A DNA stretch of 64,000 bases from an uncultured archaeon (GTDB lineage Archaea > Asgardarchaeota > Lokiarchaeia > Sigyniarchaeales > SOKP01), in contig CAZALK010000006.1 of assembly GCA_964486045.1 (NCBI GenBank), forward strand, positions 32,001 to 96,000. The letters are read 5' to 3'. The notes beneath the pieces were generated by a model, which was not told where the DNA came from, did no database searches, and was given only the letters and a program-made list of their open reading frames with translations. Both the position numbers and the translations under genes were made by a program. Shown here one piece after another: positions 55,724 to 64,000 of this stretch. Positions within the stretch are counted from its first letter, which is position 1. Every line of letters begins with the position of its first letter.

Positions 55724-56974
55724 CTATGTATACTTCTTAGCAAAGGCGACAAAAGCTCCTTTAAAACATTCCATTGGAGGGTCAGCCCTACCTCCTCCGA
55801 TCATAGGATGTCCACCGTCTTTGTGAGCCATACCGGTATTTATAACAGGTAAAATTCCTGTTTCAACAACTTTTCTTATATCAATCCCCACAGGAACACC
55901 AATGAAGTCAAGGTAAGGGATCTGAAAAAGAGTGTCCTCTGTTTGGGTGATTTCATACATCTGTTTAGTGCGCTCAATAGCATCTTTGAAATCTCTTCCT
56001 ATGAATCTTGCATGACCAGGTGCTGCTGGTGCTGCCATCCCTCCAAAACCTCTCGTTTCTGAGATGGCACTATCTCCAAGATCTAATGTAGAGTCTTCCT
56101 GTCGATATCCAGGGAAGGTGTATCCTATTATCGTCCCTGCAGGTCCAGTAAACCATTCATTCCCAAGTCCGCTGACTTGAATACCAAAATCCACTCCATT
56201 TCTAGCCATTGCAGTTACTATTGTACTGTACTCGATGTTCTTGGCTGGATCCATCATTGCCTTGCAAGATGCCATCATCAAGTTTCCTCCGTACCAGCGT
56301 CCTGGGTTGGTGTTGAAGTACTCCCCAACCTGAGCAAGGGTATCTTTATCGAAATCTGTCTTCACAATATGTGGTAGAAGACGACTCACAAAAACACTCC
56401 TAGTACCATCTAACTTGCCATGAAGCTCATCACCCATCTGTATGCCGGTTGCAAGTATTTCTTTAAGGTTAATCCCACCCGCCTCCTTGATAGTTGCTTT
56501 CAATACTGGTGCAAGTATATTTCGTACAAAATCAAGCTCGGTAATTGACTCATACTTATTACCGAAAGCTGTCAAACTTGTTTGTTGAAGGCAATAGGAA
56601 GTGTTACCATGTACCGGATTCTTAACCACAAGAACTGGAAGGGATGCTGATGTAGCTCCGCACATTCCACTAACTGCATCGTAGTTGTGGTTGGGTTCGA
56701 TTATAACTTCTCCGGTCTCAGCTAGTCTTGCAGCTTTTTCAGGTGTGTCAGCTAATCCTTCATATCTTATCAGATTTGTAATTGCATATTTCTGTGTATG
56801 ACACATCCTCTCCCACTCAATTGGAGGTCCTGCATGTGTAAACAAATTGCTCTTAAAACCGGGTATAATTTTACCCGCCGATTCAATATCAACGAGGTTA
56901 CATTCAGCTGACAGTACCCTCTTGACTGCCTCTTCATTTGCTTTTTCAATTTTGGAACTTATCGAATTTGCCAT
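55724..56974 (-). CDS. DUF1116 / YlbE(AllG)-like oxamate carbamoyltransferase subunit
   Basis: HAGPPI, AV..M.G, MGDELH, TAMARNG..FGI..SG, D.GDSAI.E..G.GG, TGILP.INTG.AH. Confidence 0.85.
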   Translation of the reverse strand: MANSISSKIEKANEEAVKRVLSAECNLVDIESAGKIIPGFKSNLFTHAGPPIEWERMCHTQKYAITNLIRYEGLADTPEKAARLAETGEVIIEPNHNYDAVSGMCGATSASLPVLVVKNPVHGNTSYCLQQTSLTAFGNKYESITELDFVRNILAPVLKATIKEAGGINLKEILATGIQMGDELHGKLDGTRSVFVSRLLPHIVKTDFDKDTLAQVGEYFNTNPGRWYGGNLMMASCKAMMDPAKNIEYSTIVTAMARNGVDFGIQVSGLGNEWFTGPAGTIIGYTFPGYRQEDSTLDLGDSAISETRGFGGMAAPAAPGHARFIGRDFKDAIERTKQMYEITQTEDTLFQIPYLDFIGVPVGIDIRKVVETGILPVINTGMAHKDGGHPMIGGGRADPPMECFKGAFVAFAKKYT

Positions 56975-57086
56975 TTCAAATCATTAATCCTATAATTTTG
57001 ATTTTATCAACTATTATATAATATTCATCTAAAATGATCAATGATTAATAAATGATGAAGGACTATAGAAATAATCTTACTAAAAA

Positions 57087-58328
57087 ATGAAATTAAAAAT
57101 GGATAGATTAAAAATGAAAATGAATATGAAGTGGAGATTCTCCATAATCGTCCTGACGGCTATATTTCTGGTTTCAATGGTTCCAAATACAACCGTGATG
57201 ATCTCGAATGACGCAGTACAAACTGAGGCACCTACTCTGAGTACAAGTCATAAAAAGGCTGCTCTTATGATTGGTGGAGATGAAACCGACTTGGGATTCT
57301 CTTGGGTGGCAATACAAGGCATGTACGAACTGAGGGACAAATATAATTGGAGTATAAGCATATCACGACAAGTAGCGTTTCCCGATCAGTATAATGTAGC
57401 TAGTGCTTACGGTGCTGCCGGATATGATGTAGTTTTCATGGTCGGAGGCCAATTTATAGAAACTTCCTACTTCTCGGGACTTCCAGATTTATACAATCAA
57501 ACCGTATGGGTTCAGATACCCGGTCTTAATTTCTCACTCGCACAAAATCTTGTGGGTCTTCATCCAAATTTCCAGACAGAAGGTCACTACCTAGCTGGAG
57601 TACTCTCAGGATTGATGACAGAAACCAATAGTGTGGGTGTAGTTTTTGGACAATGGTTTGAATACTTGTCAATGGAGTTCTATGCTTTTAAAGCTGGCTT
57701 TGAGAGTGTTAACAGTGATGGTTGTGTGCATGGCATAGTCGCTGGTACTTGGGGTGATGCTGCGCTTGGTAAACAGATCACGAAAGCGTTAATAGAAACA
57801 AAAAATGTTGATATTGTTGTCCAGGTAGCTGATACAACTGGAAGAGGAGTTATCGCTGCTGCCGTAGAGGCTGGTATTGCGGTAATCGGAACGGTTGGTG
57901 ATCAATACAGCTTAGCACCTTTAAACACAATGACTAGCATTGGGATGAATACATCAATCGTGATGGATTATGTCATATCGAACCTCGAAAATGCAACACC
58001 ATGGAATCTGTATTATGCATCTTTGAATATGACAGAGGTTGGTGGCTTCCTATTTCCTTACCATCATTATAATGATACAATCCCTCAGTCAGTGAAAGAT
58101 CAAGTTGATAATGCCGCAGCCGCTATTGCTAACGGTACAATCGTAGTCCCTGAAATATGGTATGATGACGCCGGCCCAGTAGCTCCTACAGACTGCCCCA
58201 TAGATGCGGCCCCAGCGATACCTGGATACCCCCTTTTCTATATAGGGATAGCAACAACAACAATGCTTGGTGTGATGTTTGTATTGATAAACAGAAAACA
58301 GAGAATCGTTAATAAACACAAATCTTAA
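57087..58328 (+). CDS. BMP-family (purine nucleoside-type) ABC substrate-binding protein with C-terminal IPGY-TM anchor
   Basis: D.GF.....QG, YLAGVL.G.MT.TN.VG, GTW.D...G, GVI.AA, IG...DQ. Ends in IPGYP, a TM helix and a basic tail. Confidence 0.82.
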   Translation: MKLKMDRLKMKMNMKWRFSIIVLTAIFLVSMVPNTTVMISNDAVQTEAPTLSTSHKKAALMIGGDETDLGFSWVAIQGMYELRDKYNWSISISRQVAFPDQYNVASAYGAAGYDVVFMVGGQFIETSYFSGLPDLYNQTVWVQIPGLNFSLAQNLVGLHPNFQTEGHYLAGVLSGLMTETNSVGVVFGQWFEYLSMEFYAFKAGFESVNSDGCVHGIVAGTWGDAALGKQITKALIETKNVDIVVQVADTTGRGVIAAAVEAGIAVIGTVGDQYSLAPLNTMTSIGMNTSIVMDYVISNLENATPWNLYYASLNMTEVGGFLFPYHHYNDTIPQSVKDQVDNAAAAIANGTIVVPEIWYDDAGPVAPTDCPIDAAPAIPGYPLFYIGIATTTMLGVMFVLINRKQRIVNKHKS

Positions 58329-58359
58329 TTAGGCTCCTACGGAGCAAAATAATTAATTT

Positions 58360-58386
58360 GACTGAGTAAATCGGTCTTTTTTTTTT
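58360..58386 (+). terminator. Hairpin plus T10 terminator after the BMP gene
   Basis: GACTGA-GTAAA-TCGGTC followed by ten T. A second small hairpin GCTCC-TAC-GGAGC lies just upstream. Confidence 0.5.
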
Positions 58387-58713
58387 ATTACTTTTTAGTT
58401 AATATACTATTTGATTTCCAACTATCCTGGAGCAATGAACTTGTAAATTAATCGGGGGTGATGATAATTTTTTTAGGATTATTCAATTATAACTGAAAAA
58501 TTATATTTGTGATTAGTTTATTAAAAATTAGTTTTGAGTTATTCCCAATCTTTAATAAAAATAGTCATAGTCATCTTAATAAGAAAATAAAAAAACATTT
58601 GTGTAAATCTTTACCTTTTGTCTTAATAAAATCAAAAAGAATAAAAGTATCAATTAGTTTATTATATAAGAAATATCACACTAATAAAAATTTGGTTTCA
58701 TAAGAGTGATCCA

Positions 58714-60311: not shown

Positions 60312-60671
60312 ATGTTTTTATATTTAATTCAAGCAAAAATGAATGTATCCGAAGATTTGATCAATTTTTTCAAAACACTGGGAGAATCTACTAGATTAAA
60401 TATTATAAATTTTATTGGGGAGGGAGAAAAATCAGCCCAAGAGATCCAGAGTGGCTTGAATAAAAGCCAGTCTATAATCTCTCAGAGATTAAAGAATCTT
60501 ACTGATTCTGATATTATAACTGTCCGGAGAGAAAGACATCAAAAATATTACAAAATCAAATATCCAAATGTATTAGAAATCATCTCTGGAGCAGAAAATT
60601 TAATCTCACAAAAAAAGAAAGCAGAAATGGATAGATTAACTAGTGATGATATCTTGGACACATTATTTTAA
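60312..60671 (+). CDS. ArsR/SmtB-family winged-helix transcriptional regulator
   Basis: FKTLGESTRL.I, SQSIISQ.L..L, KYY.I. Likely ATG at 60339. Confidence 0.88.
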   Translation: MFLYLIQAKMNVSEDLINFFKTLGESTRLNIINFIGEGEKSAQEIQSGLNKSQSIISQRLKNLTDSDIITVRRERHQKYYKIKYPNVLEIISGAENLISQKKKAEMDRLTSDDILDTLF

Positions 60672-60700
60672 GAAAATCAAGCACTTAAATTTGATGGAAA

Positions 60701-61222
60701 TTGTCAGAAGGAAAGCAAAAGATAAAAATCTTAATTTTAGGATTGAAAAGTAGTGGAAAAACATCAATAGTTATTAGTTTACAAAAAAAAATCAATTTAT
60801 TAAATTTCATTAATTTGAAGCCCACACGAGGAATCAATAAAATCGAATTCGAAGAAGGTAATTCTAAATTTTATATTTGGGATTTTGGTGGTCAAGAAAG
60901 TTACCGGAAAGAATATATTGAACGAATGGATCGTTATTTCAACGAAACTAAGAAATTTATTTATGTTATAGATATACAGGAACAAGAACTTTACGACAGC
61001 TCATTAGGATTTCTTGAAGATATCATCTTAATCCTCAAGAATAAAGAACTCGTTACGAATATTTCAATCTTTTTACATAAATTTGATCCAGACTTAGAGA
61101 TAGAAGAGGAGATTCCAATAAACCTGGTGAAAAAAATAGAAGCTTTAATCCCGAAAGAATTTAAATATAAAATCTTTAAAACAAGCATTTACACAGTTTT
61201 TCGAAAAATGCCTTTTTCTTAA
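60701..61222 (+). CDS. Small GTPase, Rag/Arf-like
   Basis: G1 GLKSSGKT, G2 PT, G3 WDFGGQ, G4 HKFD, G5 TSIY. Confidence 0.85.
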   Translation: MSEGKQKIKILILGLKSSGKTSIVISLQKKINLLNFINLKPTRGINKIEFEEGNSKFYIWDFGGQESYRKEYIERMDRYFNETKKFIYVIDIQEQELYDSSLGFLEDIILILKNKELVTNISIFLHKFDPDLEIEEEIPINLVKKIEALIPKEFKYKIFKTSIYTVFRKMPFS

Positions 61223-61429
61223 AATAATAAATCTCTCCCAATTCCCTTTCTTAAAGATTAAAAAGCTTGTTTGTATAATTTTTGTCTACTTTTTATATAC
61301 AATTTGTGATTTACAAAACTTTAAAATTTCATAGGTTACTATGAATCTGAATTTTATATAGTGAACTGATTGTTTACTGTACTGGTGTTTAAGAAAAATT
61401 TTTAAATTGAAACAGCAAGGGATGAGGAT

Positions 61430-64000
61430 TTGAAATATTTAATTCTTTCTTATTTTGATGACTGGGAAGGCCCAAAAATATTTTTGCAACACCCAAAAAC
61501 AAAATCTCATGAAGAATTAGAACAGATTCCTCAATTAATGAATCTTTATGATAAAGGATTTTTTACTCATTCGATAAAAGGATTTACTAGCGCAAACTTA
61601 ATTTTTGATGTAGCGAGTAATTATATCAGAGGTGGATCTGAATTACTCCAAATAACAATTCTTTGTAAAGATGAATACTTGAATACAGATCTTTCAAAAA
61701 CACTTCTTGAATGGTTTGTGCATCAAGTAAATGAAATTTCTGAGGTATTTAAAGCGTTTTATCCTGAATTAGAGGAAAAACCAGCGAGTAACAATAAATA
61801 TGTTATTCCCCTTTCCACTGATTCTTCAACAGGAAAAAGGGGTAGTAGAGGTAAATTAGCACAAGTTCGAGATTTATTTTTTAATGTTTTCAATAATTTA
61901 CCTAAAGAAAGCATTACAATAAGGCGTTCAGACTCAAAAATTTTTATATTTGGATTATCTAAAGTAGGAAAATCAACGATTATAAAGGTTATTCAAGGTT
62001 ACCAAAATACAAGTACAATTCCCACTTTCAATGTGGATATTTCACAAATACTATTTAATAATATTTCTTTAATAACGTATGATGCTCCTGGGCAGACAAA
62101 ATTCCAAAATTTTTGGAAACCTTATCTAAAAAATTTGGATGGATTAGTTTTTATACTTGATATTACAGACTATTCTACTTTTCCTTAAGCTCGTGAAATT
62201 TTACACAGTATTGCTAATAAACCAAACCTTAGAAACATACCTTTATTGATACTTTATAATAAGATCGATTTAATGACCCCTGACGTAGAGAAAATCAATG
62301 ATGCACTTAGTATTGATAAATTTGGGAAAAGAGTCTGTAGACATTTTTTAACTAGTGGTTTAACAAATGAAGGAATAGTAAACGCATTCACTTGGTTGAC
62401 TAATAATATTTTGAGTCGAAGAATTTTACCTGGAGAGGAAGAGTTAGGAATAATTTTTTCACGTTGGGATGAAATTATCGGTCTTAAAATTCTTACAACA
62501 TATCCGGAAAATGTTGTTGATGATCCTGAAAGTGTCGCTCTAAAGTGTTCTTCAATATCACAATTTGTTTATGAAGGGGAACAAGTAAAAAAATCTGCGT
62601 TTATCTTGCCCTTACCACAATTGAGGGCAAAGGCAGCAATTTATTATGATTATATTCAAGATAGTTCAATCCGAGGTAATCGGTTACCTCTCTCTATAAT
62701 CTTAATTTATCAAGAAAAGATTCCAAATTCAATTATAGATAAATTTAATAGTTTAGTACTAGATAAATTTGAGCTTATTAAAAAATGTTATATGAACGAA
62801 GAGAACTTCGATAAAAATTTTTATGAGCTCCATGGAACAATTCGGGAGAGATTAAAATCTTTTAAATCTACTGTAAAAGAATTGAGAGTAGCAGAATTAC
62901 AATATAAAGCTTTGTTTAAAGCCGCTCGAGATGCAATCTTAATTATTGAGCAGAAATCAGAAATAATTATTGATGCAAATGAGCAAGCTGAGAACTTCTT
63001 TTTATTACCTTTGGAAAAAATCATTGGTTCTCACATGACTAACCTAAAATTTGATATTGAGTATGAATTGTTTAGAGAAAAAATGGCAAATCAAGTTAGT
63101 GTAGAAGGTACTCCCCCATTTGGAGCCATAATTTTGAATTCTGAGGAATCTTTCATTCCTGTGGAAATAAATGCAAGTAGAATTCAAATGGGGGGTAGAA
63201 ATTACATACAATTTATAATTCGAGATGTTACTGAGCGTAGTAAAGCCGAACAAAGATTAAGAGAATCTGAGGAAAATTATCGACTCATTTCAGAAAATGC
63301 GAATGATCTAATTATCGTTATTAATAATAAATTTGAAGGGGAGTACATAAATGAAGATGCATATCAGAATATAATGGGATATTCAAAGAAAGATGTTATA
63401 GGCAAGTCTGTTTTAGAATTTATTCATCCAGAAGATCTTCAGAAATGCACTCAAGCAATAATGAAGGGTTTCAAAAAGGGTGGAGGACGTGTTGATGCCA
63501 GATTTAGACATAATGATGGTCATTATGTATGGTTAGATATAAAAGGAAGACCTTATTACCCTAAGGAAGGTTTAGGAAAAGCGCTTTTAATTGCTCGAGA
63601 TATTTCTGAGCGAAAAAAGGCCGAATCTACTATTAAAAAGAATTTAAAGTTTGAAAAAACTGTTGGGGTCATTTCCTCTCGGTTTATTGATGCAAACGAT
63701 TTTGATAAAGCAATTAATGATACTTTACGAGATATTGGGATACTTTGTGATGCGAATCGAGCTTTTCTTTTTAGTTATAATAAAAATGATAAAACTATTG
63801 ACAACACTCATATGTGGATTGAAGAGGGAATAAAAGCCAAAATTCAGGATTTACAAAAAATCCCTAAAATGATACTTCTCTACTGGGAGCAATTAATAAT
63901 TGAAAATGGGTATGTGCATATTACGGATGTTTCAAATCTCAAATCAAGAAATTATTTTCTTAAAGAACACTTTGAAAGCCTAAAGATTACATCTTTTTTA
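61430..64000 (+). CDS. Longin/uDENN - Arf-like GTPase - longin/uDENN - PAS - PAS - GAF fusion, with in-frame TAA at 62186-62188; runs off the window
   Basis: The same frame stays open for 604 codons after the TAA. G1 GLSKVGKS and G3 DAPGQ precede the stop; G4 NKID and TSG..NEG...AF.WL follow it. Then WDEIIG..I...YP, two PAS domains (..RDVTER, FIHPED..RDISERK) and a GAF domain (DANRAFLF). Confidence 0.75.

What the first reader, a model, noticed from the sequence alone, without database searches (positions are those of the whole stretch)
60312..64000. Candidate new signalling system: ArsR + Rag-like GTPase + longin-GTPase-longin-PAS-PAS-GAF sensor fusion
Seen: the ORF track stops at 62188, but the frame continues without another stop to the window end, giving at least 857 codons in total. 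The order is a longin/uDENN-like domain (YFDDWEGPKI..HP ... IRGG), an Arf-like G domain (GLSKVGKS at about 61952, DAPGQ at 62081, NKID at 62258), a second longin/uDENN-like domain from about 62440, two PAS domains (about 62890-63240 and 63270-63615), and a GAF domain from about 63650. Upstream on the same strand are an ArsR gene and a stand-alone GTPase with Rag-type HKxD/TSI motifs. Established: longin/DENN domains regulate Rag, Arf and Rab GTPases in eukaryotes, and PAS-GAF arrays usually feed histidine kinases. Inference: a eukaryote-like GTPase switch is covalently wired to a prokaryotic sensory module, probably a histidine kinase beyond the window, and is under ArsR control. I do not know of a described protein with this architecture.
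Basis: partly seen in the sequence, partly recalled or inferred. Interest (0 to 1): 0.9.

Follow-up and report, generated by a model that had tools for sequence, protein, structure and literature searches.

The report
Longin-Arf-longin PAS sensor, stop-interrupted
A Loki-type Asgard archaeon encodes a 1,647-codon signalling protein in which an Arf-like GTPase sits between two folliculin/NPRL2-type longin domains and is fused to a long PAS/GAF sensor array with no kinase; this copy is cut by one premature stop codon.

Summary
From window 61430 one frame runs to 66373 on the extended contig, giving 1,647 codons, with a single in-frame TAA at 62186-62188 inside the G domain.

The order is longin, Arf-like G domain, second longin, 2 PAS, GAF-like, 3 PAS, small unknown domain, 2 PAS. 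There is no HisKA or HATPase_c, so the predicted kinase beyond the window does not exist in this gene. Some relatives do end in a kinase module, intact in a few and degenerate in most.

Longin 1 models confidently. It matches FLCN-FNIP2, GATOR1, Lst4 and SMCR8 longins and a solved Lokiarchaeota longin (Z 10-13.6).

The three closest intact orthologues (80-85% identity) have Gln at the TAA position; CAA was read in the one checked. The stop is therefore one recent C-to-T change or a consensus error.

The ArsR gene, a roadblock-less Rag-like GTPase and this gene are adjacent in all five loci of the branch.

In the genomes sampled the family is confined to one Lokiarchaeia-type order. Longin-Arf fusions and NPRL2-like longin fusions to two-component domains are already published. 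This scan also found the 1,123-residue sister type on other DNA (e1-4926362).

Verdict: a real and interesting new variant of a known kind.

The parts
60339..60671 (+). ArsR/SmtB-family winged-helix regulator. It is 110 residues from the ATG that the orthologues use; the ORF is open from 60312. It has no Cys.
   Evidence: Pfam HTH_5 3.4e-08. NCBIfam NF033788 59.3 bits against a cut-off of 55. Orthologues of 110-111 residues sit in the same position in L031, L053, L055 and L056.
60701..61222 (+). Stand-alone Rag-like small GTPase, 173 residues, consisting of a G domain only with no C-terminal roadblock domain.
   Evidence: Pfam Gtr1_RagA 3e-20 and Arf 1.9e-19. The motifs WDFGGQ, HKFD and TSIY are in the sequence. 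It is 90-93% identical to its neighbours' copies. 232 homologues of 95-303 residues were found, named Arf-like in Loki, Hel and Promethearchaeota MAGs.
61223..61429 (+). 207-base spacer before the large gene. It is well conserved against the orthologous locus and carries TATA-like runs.
   Evidence: Alignment with L053. The promoter role is inference only.
61430..64000 (+). Large gene, first 857 of 1,647 codons. It continues to window-equivalent 66373 (L007 3430-8373).
61430..61900 (+). Longin domain 1 (residues 1-157). Topology is two strands, a short helical turn, three strands, then two helices. A 23-residue disordered insert (116-138) is specific to this branch. A conserved Arg67-Gly68 sits in the loop between strands 4 and 5.
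   Evidence: AF2 pLDDT 86.5, pTM 0.81. VIA-align: 6nzd_H Z 13.6 (rmsd 2.5, 134 aligned), 8yqg_B Z 12.3, 8fw5_C Z 11.7, 8adl_S Z 10.5, 4zy8_C Z 10.4. Foldseek's top 12 hits are GATOR1, SEA and FLCN-FNIP2 complex chains and the Lst4 longin. Arg67 is present in 39 of 44 sequences and Gly68 in 40 of 44.
61922..62425 (+). Arf-like G domain (residues 165-332). G1 is GLSKVGKS, the switch I Thr is in TIPT, G3 is DAPGQ with the catalytic Gln, G4 is NKID and G5 is TSG.
   Evidence: Pfam Arf 3.4e-17 for the first half and 2.3e-07 for the second. The intact orthologue scores 2.4e-33. Structure matches: Arf1/Arf6 Z about 20, Asgard HodArfR1 8oul Z 19.0; Foldseek 5e-12.
62186..62188 (+). In-frame TAA at codon 253, between G3 and G4.
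   Evidence: The orthologue has CAA at this codon and the bases on both sides are identical. P0272, P0002 and P0273 all have Gln here.
62441..62779 (+). Longin domain 2 (residues 338-450). Topology is two strands, one helix, three strands, then helices, with no N-terminal helix. A conserved Arg415-Gly416 sits in the equivalent loop.
   Evidence: DSSP on the 450-residue model, pLDDT 74-92 in this stretch. hhalign to domain 1: probability 58%, E 1e-4, 80 columns. Arg415 is present in 22 of 26 sequences. Together with the G domain it aligns to the G-plus-C-terminal-domain chains 4arz_B and 9m28_A. It was not folded or searched alone.
62894..63244 (+). PAS 1 (residues 489-605).
   Evidence: Pfam PAS_9. 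Repeat boundaries from an iterated search.
63263..63619 (+). PAS 2 (residues 612-730).
   Evidence: Pfam PAS and PAS_3.
63698..64000 (+). GAF-like domain (residues 757-900), cut by the window end. Beyond the window lie PAS 912-1030, 1038-1155 and 1163-1281, a conserved unknown domain at about 1290-1405, PAS 1415-1524 and a PAS-like unit at 1530-1632.
   Evidence: GAF E 0.0055, 17.7 bits, profile positions 1-132 of 133. P0002 gives GAF 2.5e-4.. For the unknown domain there are Atlas leads only.

Best explanation
What it is. The gene encodes a soluble multidomain signalling protein of a Loki-type Asgard archaeon. It belongs to a lineage-restricted family built on a fixed N-terminal module: an NPRL2/folliculin-type longin domain, an Arf-like GTPase and a second, homologous longin domain. 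A helical linker joins this module to PAS/GAF sensor domains. This copy lies in a branch that has no kinase or any other enzymatic output, so the GTPase module is the only candidate signalling output.

How it probably works (inferred). The two longin domains pair as the longins of FLCN-FNIP, NPRL2-NPRL3 and C9orf72-SMCR8 do, and form a regulatory platform for the G domain lying between them. The conserved Arg-Gly loops (R67, R415) may act as arginine fingers. Ligand or redox signals read by the PAS/GAF array shift the GTP/GDP state. The always-adjacent Rag-like GTPase that lacks a roadblock domain, and the ArsR-type regulator, are the likely partner and transcriptional component.

State in this genome. 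The gene carries one C-to-T change, CAA (Gln253) to TAA, in the middle of the G domain. Nothing else is damaged, so the allele is very recent, polymorphic, or a consensus error. If it is real, the GTPase is inactivated.
For: Shown:
- Full anatomy, and absence of HisKA/HATPase_c.
- Longin fold of domain 1, with GAP-type longins as best matches.
- Domain 2 has longin topology and is weakly homologous to domain 1.
- Arf-type G domain with all G motifs.
- The fusion is one uninterrupted ORF in relatives. Every other match at 1e-40 or better in 241 genomes has no internal stop. 87 protein clusters carry it.
- Three intact orthologues of the kinase-less branch share its C-terminus and have Gln at codon 253. 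The codon is CAA against TAA.
- dN/dS is 0.34 before and 0.22 after the stop.
- The ArsR / 171-173-residue Rag-like GTPase / large-gene order is conserved in five loci.
- The sister type has 315-residue Gtr1/RagA genes directly upstream.
- In relatives the kinase module is mostly degenerate: the H-box His is replaced in 5 of 9 sequences aligned, and the G1 box is kept in only 2. This fits the GTPase being the conserved core.
- Arg67 is present in 39 of 44 sequences and Arg415 in 22 of 26.

Inferred:
- Pairing of the two longin domains, the arginine-finger role, the direction of signal flow, the partnership with the neighbouring GTPase, and the ArsR role.
Against: - No binding, GTPase or expression datum exists.
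- I could not see model coordinates or PAE, so I could not test whether R67 or R415 reaches the nucleotide pocket, or whether either is structurally equivalent to FLCN R164 or NPRL2 R78.
- Pfam's Folliculin model matches domain 1 only below threshold (13 bits against 23.3).
- In sensor proteins the output is usually C-terminal. Here the GTPase module is N-terminal, and in kinase-bearing relatives it could be an input.
- In this genome the gene is interrupted, and in the closest GTDB relative (G022) it is truncated after about codon 202. The branch may therefore be dispensable or decaying.
- The 207-base spacer with TATA-like runs suggests that the large gene may not be co-transcribed with the ArsR and GTPase genes (inference).
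Confidence: 0.55

Rival explanations
1. One reading: a GTPase switch wired to a histidine kinase that lies beyond the window, so that GTP/GDP loading sets kinase output under ArsR control.
For: Some family members do end in a kinase module. P0006 (833 residues) has HisKA plus HATPase_c at 1.4e-14, with H, N, G1 and G2 boxes. P0003 has HATPase_c at 8e-18. HATPase_c is found in 6 of 23 representatives, and about 20 of 87 clusters list PF02518.
Against: The complete ORF of this gene has no HisKA or HATPase_c and ends in a PAS-like unit. Its three intact orthologues end identically. No kinase gene follows it; the next genes are a convergent two-CW protein and a hemerythrin/PAS_10 protein. In most relatives the kinase residues are lost.
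Confidence: 0.05
2. The TAA is an assembly or consensus error, or a minority allele, and the cells carry an intact gene.
For: It is a single-base difference from CAA in otherwise identical flanks. There is no other lesion in 1,647 codons. dN/dS is well below 1 on both sides.
Against: The same 252-residue product is called on three assembled contigs, and the one shown is identical in DNA. These may share the same reads, so this is weak. The closest GTDB relative also has a damaged copy, so loss in this clade is plausible.
Confidence: 0.15
3. The stop is functional: programmed read-through, or a deliberately split gene whose two products reassemble.
For: Only that the downstream frame is intact.
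Against: TAA is an ordinary terminator here; the ArsR, GTPase and Bmp genes all end in TAA. No orthologue has a stop at this position. The break lies between G3 and G4 inside one fold, and the downstream piece has no natural start.
Confidence: 0.02
4. The longin domains are not a GAP acting on their own G domain. Instead they are a dimerisation or GEF-type platform, as in TRAPP, Mon1-Ccz1 or MglB, for the neighbouring Rag-like GTPase, with the internal Arf-like domain as the second half of a Rag-like GTPase pair.
For: The neighbouring GTPase lacks the roadblock domain that Rag proteins use to pair. A Rag-family gene sits directly upstream in two sub-branches. G plus longin 2 aligns with the G-plus-C-terminal-domain chains Gtr2 4arz_B and LokiRagM 9m28_A. 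Longin GEF platforms also appear among the fold matches, at Z 8-9.
Against: The best fold matches are the GAP-type longins rather than GEF-type ones. The 1,123-residue sister type has no Rag-like neighbour.
Confidence: 0.2

Closest known systems
Eukaryotic longin-domain GAP complexes: FLCN-FNIP2 (RagC/D), GATOR1 NPRL2-NPRL3 (RagA/B), Lst4-Lst7, C9orf72-SMCR8 (Arf/Rab)
   Same: Longin 1 matches their longin domains best (Z 9.9-13.6). There are two longin domains per unit. The target class is an Arf/Rag-type GTPase. A conserved Arg sits in a loop of each longin.
   Different: Here the GTPase and both longins are one polypeptide. There is no DENN or NPRL2 C-terminal domain. The module is fused to PAS/GAF sensors. 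Sequence membership in the Pfam Folliculin family was not reached. Equivalence of the Arg to the known fingers, and any GAP activity, are untested.
Asgard longin-GTPase fusions: Lokiarchaeum longins fused to Arf-like GTPases (Klinger et al. 2016, as cited in PMC4917890); MK-D1 longin-GTPase and longin-GTPase-roadblock architectures (PMC10933270)
   Same: Same phylum-level lineage, same longin-then-Arf/Rag-like-G order, and a third roadblock/longin-superfamily domain after the G domain.
   Different: Those reports, as far as I could read them, describe short proteins and do not mention PAS/GAF arrays or kinase modules. Here the module heads a 1,647-residue sensor protein.
NPRL2-like longin domains fused to two-component signalling domains in Asgard archaea (Liu et al., bioRxiv 10.1101/2020.10.19.343400, Fig. 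5c)
   Same: An NPRL2-type longin is combined with prokaryotic sensor or kinase domains, and the same idea is proposed: eukaryote-like regulators are plugged into two-component signalling.
   Different: I could not see the figure, so I cannot say whether this exact architecture is shown. The text does not mention an embedded GTPase. This branch has lost the kinase entirely.
Sister type found earlier by this scan (e1-4926362): a 1,123-residue longin-Arf-longin-PAS-PAS-GAF protein with a dead kinase
   Same: Same N-terminal module, 42-46% identical over 450 residues. Same genus and family.
   Different: That type ends in a degenerate HATPase_c, with Asn in place of the H-box His, and has Lys in place of the catalytic Gln. 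It has no Rag-like or ArsR neighbours. The present branch has seven PAS units, no kinase and a conserved three-gene neighbourhood.
Rag/Gtr GTPases (G domain plus C-terminal roadblock domain) and the solved Lokiarchaeota Rag-like proteins (PDB 9m28, 8yl2)
   Same: G plus longin 2 aligns with G plus C-terminal domain of Gtr2 and LokiRagM. The upstream neighbour has Rag-type HKxD and TSI motifs.
   Different: The internal G domain is closer to Arf (Z about 20) than to Rag (Z about 15-16). The neighbour has no roadblock domain at all.

Membership tests
Longin domain (fold level; FLCN/NPRL2/Lst4/SMCR8 type) | Five-stranded sheet with one helix between strands 2 and 3, two C-terminal helices and no N-terminal helix | tested here: met
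   Domain 1: AF2 pLDDT 86.5; Z 13.6 to 6nzd_H, 12.3 to 8yqg_B, 11.7 to 8fw5_C; Foldseek 9e-06 to 8.5e-04 for the top 12. Domain 2: topology only, from the 450-residue model, plus hhalign 58% to domain 1.
Longin domain (fold level; FLCN/NPRL2/Lst4/SMCR8 type) | Sequence membership in a curated longin family (Pfam Folliculin, NPR2, Longin) | tested here: not met
   Only Folliculin PF11704 appears, at E 0.091 and 13 bits against a cut-off of 23.3, for residues 44-120. There is nothing for domain 2.
Longin-domain GAP | Catalytic arginine finger equivalent to FLCN R164, NPRL2 R78 or SMCR8 R147, and GAP activity | not testable with these tools
   Arg67-Gly68 and Arg415-Gly416 are conserved in the loop between strands 4 and 5. 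No residue-level structural alignment or coordinates were available, and there is no biochemistry.
Arf-family small GTPase (Pfam PF00025; Asgard ArfR) | G1-G5 motifs and a Pfam Arf score above the cut-off | tested here: met
   62.9 bits for the N half and 30.9 bits for the C half, against a cut-off of 22.3. GLSKVGKS, TIPT, DAPGQ, NKID and TSG are present. Z is about 20 to Arf1/Arf6 and 19.0 to HodArfR1.
Arf-family small GTPase (Pfam PF00025; Asgard ArfR) | N-terminal amphipathic helix or myristoylation site for membrane binding | tested here: not met
   A 157-residue longin domain and a linker precede the G domain.
Arf-family small GTPase (Pfam PF00025; Asgard ArfR) | Uninterrupted reading frame | tested here: not met
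   TAA at codon 253. The frame is intact in all relatives.
Sensor histidine kinase (two-component) | HisKA dimerisation/phospho-acceptor domain and HATPase_c | tested here: not met
   Neither is found in the 1,394 residues after the stop at E up to 0.01, nor in the last 128 residues at E up to 5. Both are present in some relatives.
PAS domain | Pfam PAS-clan matches above the cut-off | tested here: met
   PAS_3 232 bits, PAS_9 212 bits, PAS 197 bits. Seven units were delimited; the last is degenerate.
GAF domain | Pfam GAF above the cut-off | tested here: inconclusive
   17.7 bits against 22.4, but covering profile positions 1-132 of 133. The orthologue P0002 scores 22.0 bits.
Rag/Gtr GTPase (the upstream 173-residue gene) | Gtr1_RagA G domain with HKxD and TSI motifs | tested here: met
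   73.1 bits against a cut-off of 22. HKFD and TSIY are in the sequence.
Rag/Gtr GTPase (the upstream 173-residue gene) | C-terminal roadblock domain used for heterodimerisation | tested here: not met
   The protein ends 9 residues after G5. The profile is matched only over positions 1-161 of 232.
ArsR/SmtB metalloregulator | Winged-helix domain of the family | tested here: met
   NF033788 59.3 bits against a cut-off of 55; HTH_5 33.7 bits.
ArsR/SmtB metalloregulator | Metal-binding Cys or His sites | tested here: not met
   The sequence has no Cys and a single His.

The most novel reading that the evidence does not exclude
The longin-Arf-longin module is a complete, self-regulating GTPase switch in one chain. 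The two longins form an intramolecular FLCN-FNIP/NPRL2-NPRL3-like pair, and their Arg-Gly loops act as a built-in GAP. The PAS/GAF array gates that GAP in response to a ligand. If so, this is a prokaryotic, sensor-coupled forerunner of eukaryotic longin-GAP control of Rag/Arf GTPases, acting with the adjacent roadblock-less Rag-like GTPase.
Probability: 0.25. Interest if true: 0.8.

Novelty: new variant of a known kind. Interest (0 to 1): 0.55.

Why it matters
Tran et al. (PMC10933270) state that Asgard small GTPases cannot easily be matched to their GAPs or GEFs from genome layout. This family solves the pairing problem by covalent fusion: one Arf-like GTPase, two GAP-type longins and a sensor array lie in one chain.

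In this branch there is also a fixed Rag-like neighbour and a dedicated regulator. That gives a compact system, expressible in E. coli, for asking two questions. Did longin-mediated GTPase control predate eukaryotes? How was it linked to prokaryotic sensing?

The gradual loss of the kinase across the family (active, then dead, then absent) suggests a shift of output from phosphotransfer to a GTPase switch.

This particular copy is less useful as an exemplar because of the premature stop. The intact orthologues P0272, P0002 and P0273 are the ones to study.

Tried and rejected
No read-level check of the TAA was possible. The look-up of sequencing runs listed no RNA holder.
The natural pair P0002:1-450 plus P0157, from one contig, gave 'no answer' with a score of 0.20 against a mark of 0.32. 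This is no evidence either way.
- A profile of longin 1 searched against PDB sequences found only helical designer proteins and no longin. Sequence alone does not reach the fold.
- The search for related loci with the alignment failed for lack of a conserved stretch. With the single protein it found only the truncated G022 copy, in an unnamed MAG. The taxon is therefore inferred from the names of homologues (Lokiarchaeota, Promethearchaeota, Helarchaeota) and not from a marker gene.
- A profilin family search of the genome found nothing. It also found nothing in the control genomes, so it is uninformative.
- Paper searches for a small GTPase with PAS or histidine kinase in Asgard, for LokiRagM and for Roadblock-Longin found nothing relevant. 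The library is incomplete, so this is not proof of novelty.
- The unknown domain at residues 1290-1405 has no Pfam hit. Atlas feature hits go to unnamed bacterial clusters and GAF clusters at 0.86-0.95, which are leads only.
- I counted same-frame ORF pairs separated by one stop across the genome to judge assembly quality. The result, 99 pairs, cannot separate abutting genes from broken ones.
- Recoding of TAA was considered and rejected, because TAA terminates the neighbouring genes.


Full report
**Observation**

The window is G000:C6:32001-96000 of a 5.18-Mb, 45-contig assembly. On the plus strand an ORF starts at TTG 61430 and stops at TAA 62186-62188. The same frame then stays open to the window end.

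I extended the contig as L007 = C6:90001-108000. There the frame runs to a TGA at L007 8371-8373, giving 1,647 codons with only that one internal stop. At about 30% G+C, 1,394 open codons after the stop cannot be chance.

**Anatomy**

Pfam gives an Arf G domain split by the stop: residues 165-249 score 62.9 bits and residues 254-327 score 30.9 bits. It also gives strong PAS matches and no HisKA or HATPase_c anywhere.

An iterated search with one PAS unit delimits seven units at residues 489-605, 612-730, 912-1030, 1038-1155, 1163-1281, 1415-1524 and a degenerate one at 1530-1632. Residues 757-900 match GAF over the whole profile but below threshold. Residues 1290-1405 are a conserved domain without a family.

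The kinase predicted beyond the window is therefore absent.

**The flanking domains**

An AF2 model of residues 1-450, built on 48 homologues, has mean pLDDT 84 and pTM 0.68.

- Residues 1-157 form two strands, a short helical turn, three strands and two helices.
- Residues 338-450 form two strands, a helix, three strands and helices.

Folded alone, domain 1 has pLDDT 86.5. Its best matches in the PDB are longin domains of Rag/Arf GAP complexes and a solved Lokiarchaeota longin:

| PDB chain | Entry | Z |
|---|---|---|
| 6nzd_H | FLCN-FNIP2 complex | 13.6 (rmsd 2.5 over 134 residues) |
| 8yqg_B | Lokiarchaeota longin | 12.3 |
| 8fw5_C | GATOR1 | 11.7 |
| 8adl_S | SEA complex | 10.5 |
| 4zy8_C | Lst4 | 10.4 |
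| 7o2w_A | C9orf72-SMCR8 | 9.9 |
| 6ekk_A | DENND1A | 9.9 |

SNARE, adaptor and TRAPP longins follow below them. Foldseek agrees.

Domain 2 aligns to domain 1 profile-to-profile at 58% probability and E 1e-4, over the same motifs. I did not fold it alone, so its longin assignment rests on topology and that homology.

An Arg-Gly pair in the loop between strands 4 and 5 is among the most conserved positions of both domains: R67 in 39 of 44 sequences and R415 in 22 of 26. An earlier first-reader note (e1-5505181) raised the idea that this is a folliculin-type arginine finger. I could test its conservation only, not its geometry.

The G domain is Arf-like. Z is about 20 to Arf1/Arf6 and 19.0 to the Asgard HodArfR1. 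All five G motifs and the catalytic Gln are present.

**The stop codon**

The three closest relatives are intact proteins: P0272 (85% identity, 1,661 residues), P0002 (83%, 1,772 residues) and P0273 (80%, 1,897 residues). All have Gln where this gene has TAA.

At the DNA level the orthologue reads CAA in otherwise identical flanks, so the difference is one C-to-T change. dN/dS against that orthologue is 0.34 before and 0.22 after the stop. Both halves were therefore under purifying selection for nearly all of their divergence.

Every other match to this module at E 1e-40 or better, in 241 related genomes, lacks an internal stop. TAA is a normal terminator here. The same truncated product is called on three assembled contigs, and the one shown is identical in DNA over 7,988 bases. 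I could not inspect reads.

The closest GTDB species (G022) has the same three-gene locus, but its gene is truncated after about codon 202 and runs into a cobalamin adenosyltransferase-like gene. My reading is a real, very recent nonsense allele (about 0.8), with a consensus error as the main alternative (about 0.15).

**The family**

The N-terminal module is fused to different C-terminal parts in different relatives:

- nothing (310-345 residues, longin plus G domain)
- the second longin only (about 480-500 residues)
- PAS units (about 700 residues)
- PAS-PAS plus a kinase-like end (about 945-970 residues)
- PAS-PAS-GAF plus a kinase-like end (1,123 residues)
- very long PAS/GAF arrays with HATPase_c (2,300-2,470 residues)

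The first longin alone also heads a 553-residue PAS-GAF-PAS protein in this genome.

HATPase_c is detectable in 6 of 23 representatives and listed for about 20 of 87 clusters. Aligning nine kinase-like ends shows the phospho-acceptor His kept in four and replaced by Y, N, Q or T in five. The ATP-lid G1 box is kept in only two. This agrees with the earlier scan report on the 1,123-residue type (e1-4926362).

The branch containing this window's gene has no kinase at all, and its four full-length members share the same C-terminus. The loss is therefore not a truncation artefact. Its members differ by gain and loss of whole PAS units.

**Distribution**

In an even sample of 201 genomes across the phylum (29 families), strong matches occur only in the window's own family: 10 of 40 other genomes, in four genera. 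Within the order, a second family has a longin-G-longin-PAS form and a third has the longin-G form. Source names of homologues are Lokiarchaeota, Promethearchaeota or Helarchaeota MAGs. One orthologous contig comes from a marine-sediment metagenome whose proteins carry LCGC14 names.

**Neighbourhood**

The following order is found in G000, G022 and the three metagenomic contigs L053, L055 and L056:

- an ArsR/SmtB-type regulator with no Cys
- 13-29 bases of spacer
- a 171-173-residue Rag-like GTPase without a roadblock domain
- 207-300 bases of spacer
- the large gene

A convergent two-CW-domain gene follows the large gene in G000 and L056; similarly placed small ORFs of 118 residues (L055) were not checked for that domain.

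The roughly 950-residue sister type instead has one or two 315-residue Gtr1/RagA-family genes directly upstream. The 1,123-residue type has neither. A link between a Rag-family GTPase and this module thus recurs at two depths. A link to ArsR is seen only within the shallow branch.

The complex prediction for the natural pair gave no verdict.

**What is known**

- Longin domains fused to Arf-like GTPases in Lokiarchaeum: five cases, Klinger et al. 2016 as cited in PMC4917890.
- Longin-GTPase and longin-GTPase-roadblock architectures in MK-D1: PMC10933270.
- NPRL2-like longin domains fused to two-component domains across Asgard: bioRxiv 10.1101/2020.10.19.343400.

I found no text describing a GTPase flanked by two longins and fused to PAS/GAF arrays, but the library is incomplete and I could not see figures. 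Database records already carry the composite automatic name. I therefore class this as a new variant of a known kind.

**Mechanism**

Shown: the anatomy, the folds, the conservation, the neighbourhood and the nature of the stop.

Inferred: the two longins pair and regulate the embedded G domain. The PAS/GAF array modulates that switch. In this kinase-less branch the GTPase is the output. The adjacent Rag-like GTPase and ArsR protein belong to the same circuit.

The main rival places the longins as a platform for the neighbouring GTPase rather than as a cis-GAP.

Noticed in passing
L007:8436-8768 (-), window-equivalent 66436-66768, just beyond the window: A 110-residue Cys-rich ORF lies convergent to the large gene. 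It is a two-CW domain protein (NF045718, 2e-27). An ORF of the same size sits in the same position in L056, and a 118-residue one in L055; neither of those was checked for the domain.
   Followed up: partly
window 60339-64000 and L007:2339-7311 compared with L053: Synonymous divergence from the orthologous contig is mosaic. dS is about 0.2-0.3 over codons 1-500 of the large gene, and the 207-base spacer is well conserved. By contrast dS is 0.54 for the GTPase gene, 1.1 for ArsR and 0.6-1.7 for codons 600-1294. This suggests a recombination tract over the longin-G-longin module, or nucleotide-level constraint.
   Followed up: partly
L031 (G022:C30:24686-28291) and L054: The closest GTDB species keeps the ArsR and Rag-like GTPase genes. 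Its large gene diverges after about codon 202 into unrelated sequence and abuts a CobA/CobO/BtuR-like gene that lies about 7 kb further downstream in G000. This is a deletion of roughly 11 kb or a misassembly in a contig whose name gives about 6-fold coverage.
   Followed up: partly
P0272, P0002, P0273 compared with P0001: Orthologues differ by whole PAS units. P0272 lacks PAS 2 and has an extra unit before the unknown domain. P0002 has one extra and P0273 two. This looks like unit-wise expansion and contraction of the sensor array.
   Followed up: partly
L011:214-1875 (-) = G000:C12, and L010:1483-2520 (+) = G000:C17: Two paralogues reuse the same longin 1. One is a 553-residue longin-PAS-GAF-PAS protein, with 553-555-residue open frames matching longin 1 in many genus relatives. 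The other is a 345-residue longin plus GTPase protein.
   Followed up: partly
L007:9060-10418 (+), window-equivalent 67060-68418: A 452-residue DUF1858-DUF438-hemerythrin-PAS_10 protein (a likely O2/NO or iron sensor type) lies two genes downstream of the large gene.
   Followed up: no
G000 genome-wide, e.g. C23:11771, C6:210604, C6:219372, C14:104065, C20:38316: There are 99 pairs of open frames of at least 200 codons separated by one stop. Several very large pairs are separated by TAG (1260+1256, 1022+1311, 1613+1005, 652+652, 851+751 codons). They may be abutting genes, broken genes or TAG read-through. I did not examine them.
   Followed up: no
window 61775-61843 (residues 116-138): A disordered insert of about 20 residues between the two C-terminal helices of longin 1 is present only in this kinase-less branch.
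   Followed up: no
window 56000-58500: G+C is 0.36-0.46 here, against 0.24-0.33 from 58500 onward. The richer block covers the Bmp-family binding protein and the genes upstream of it.
   Followed up: no
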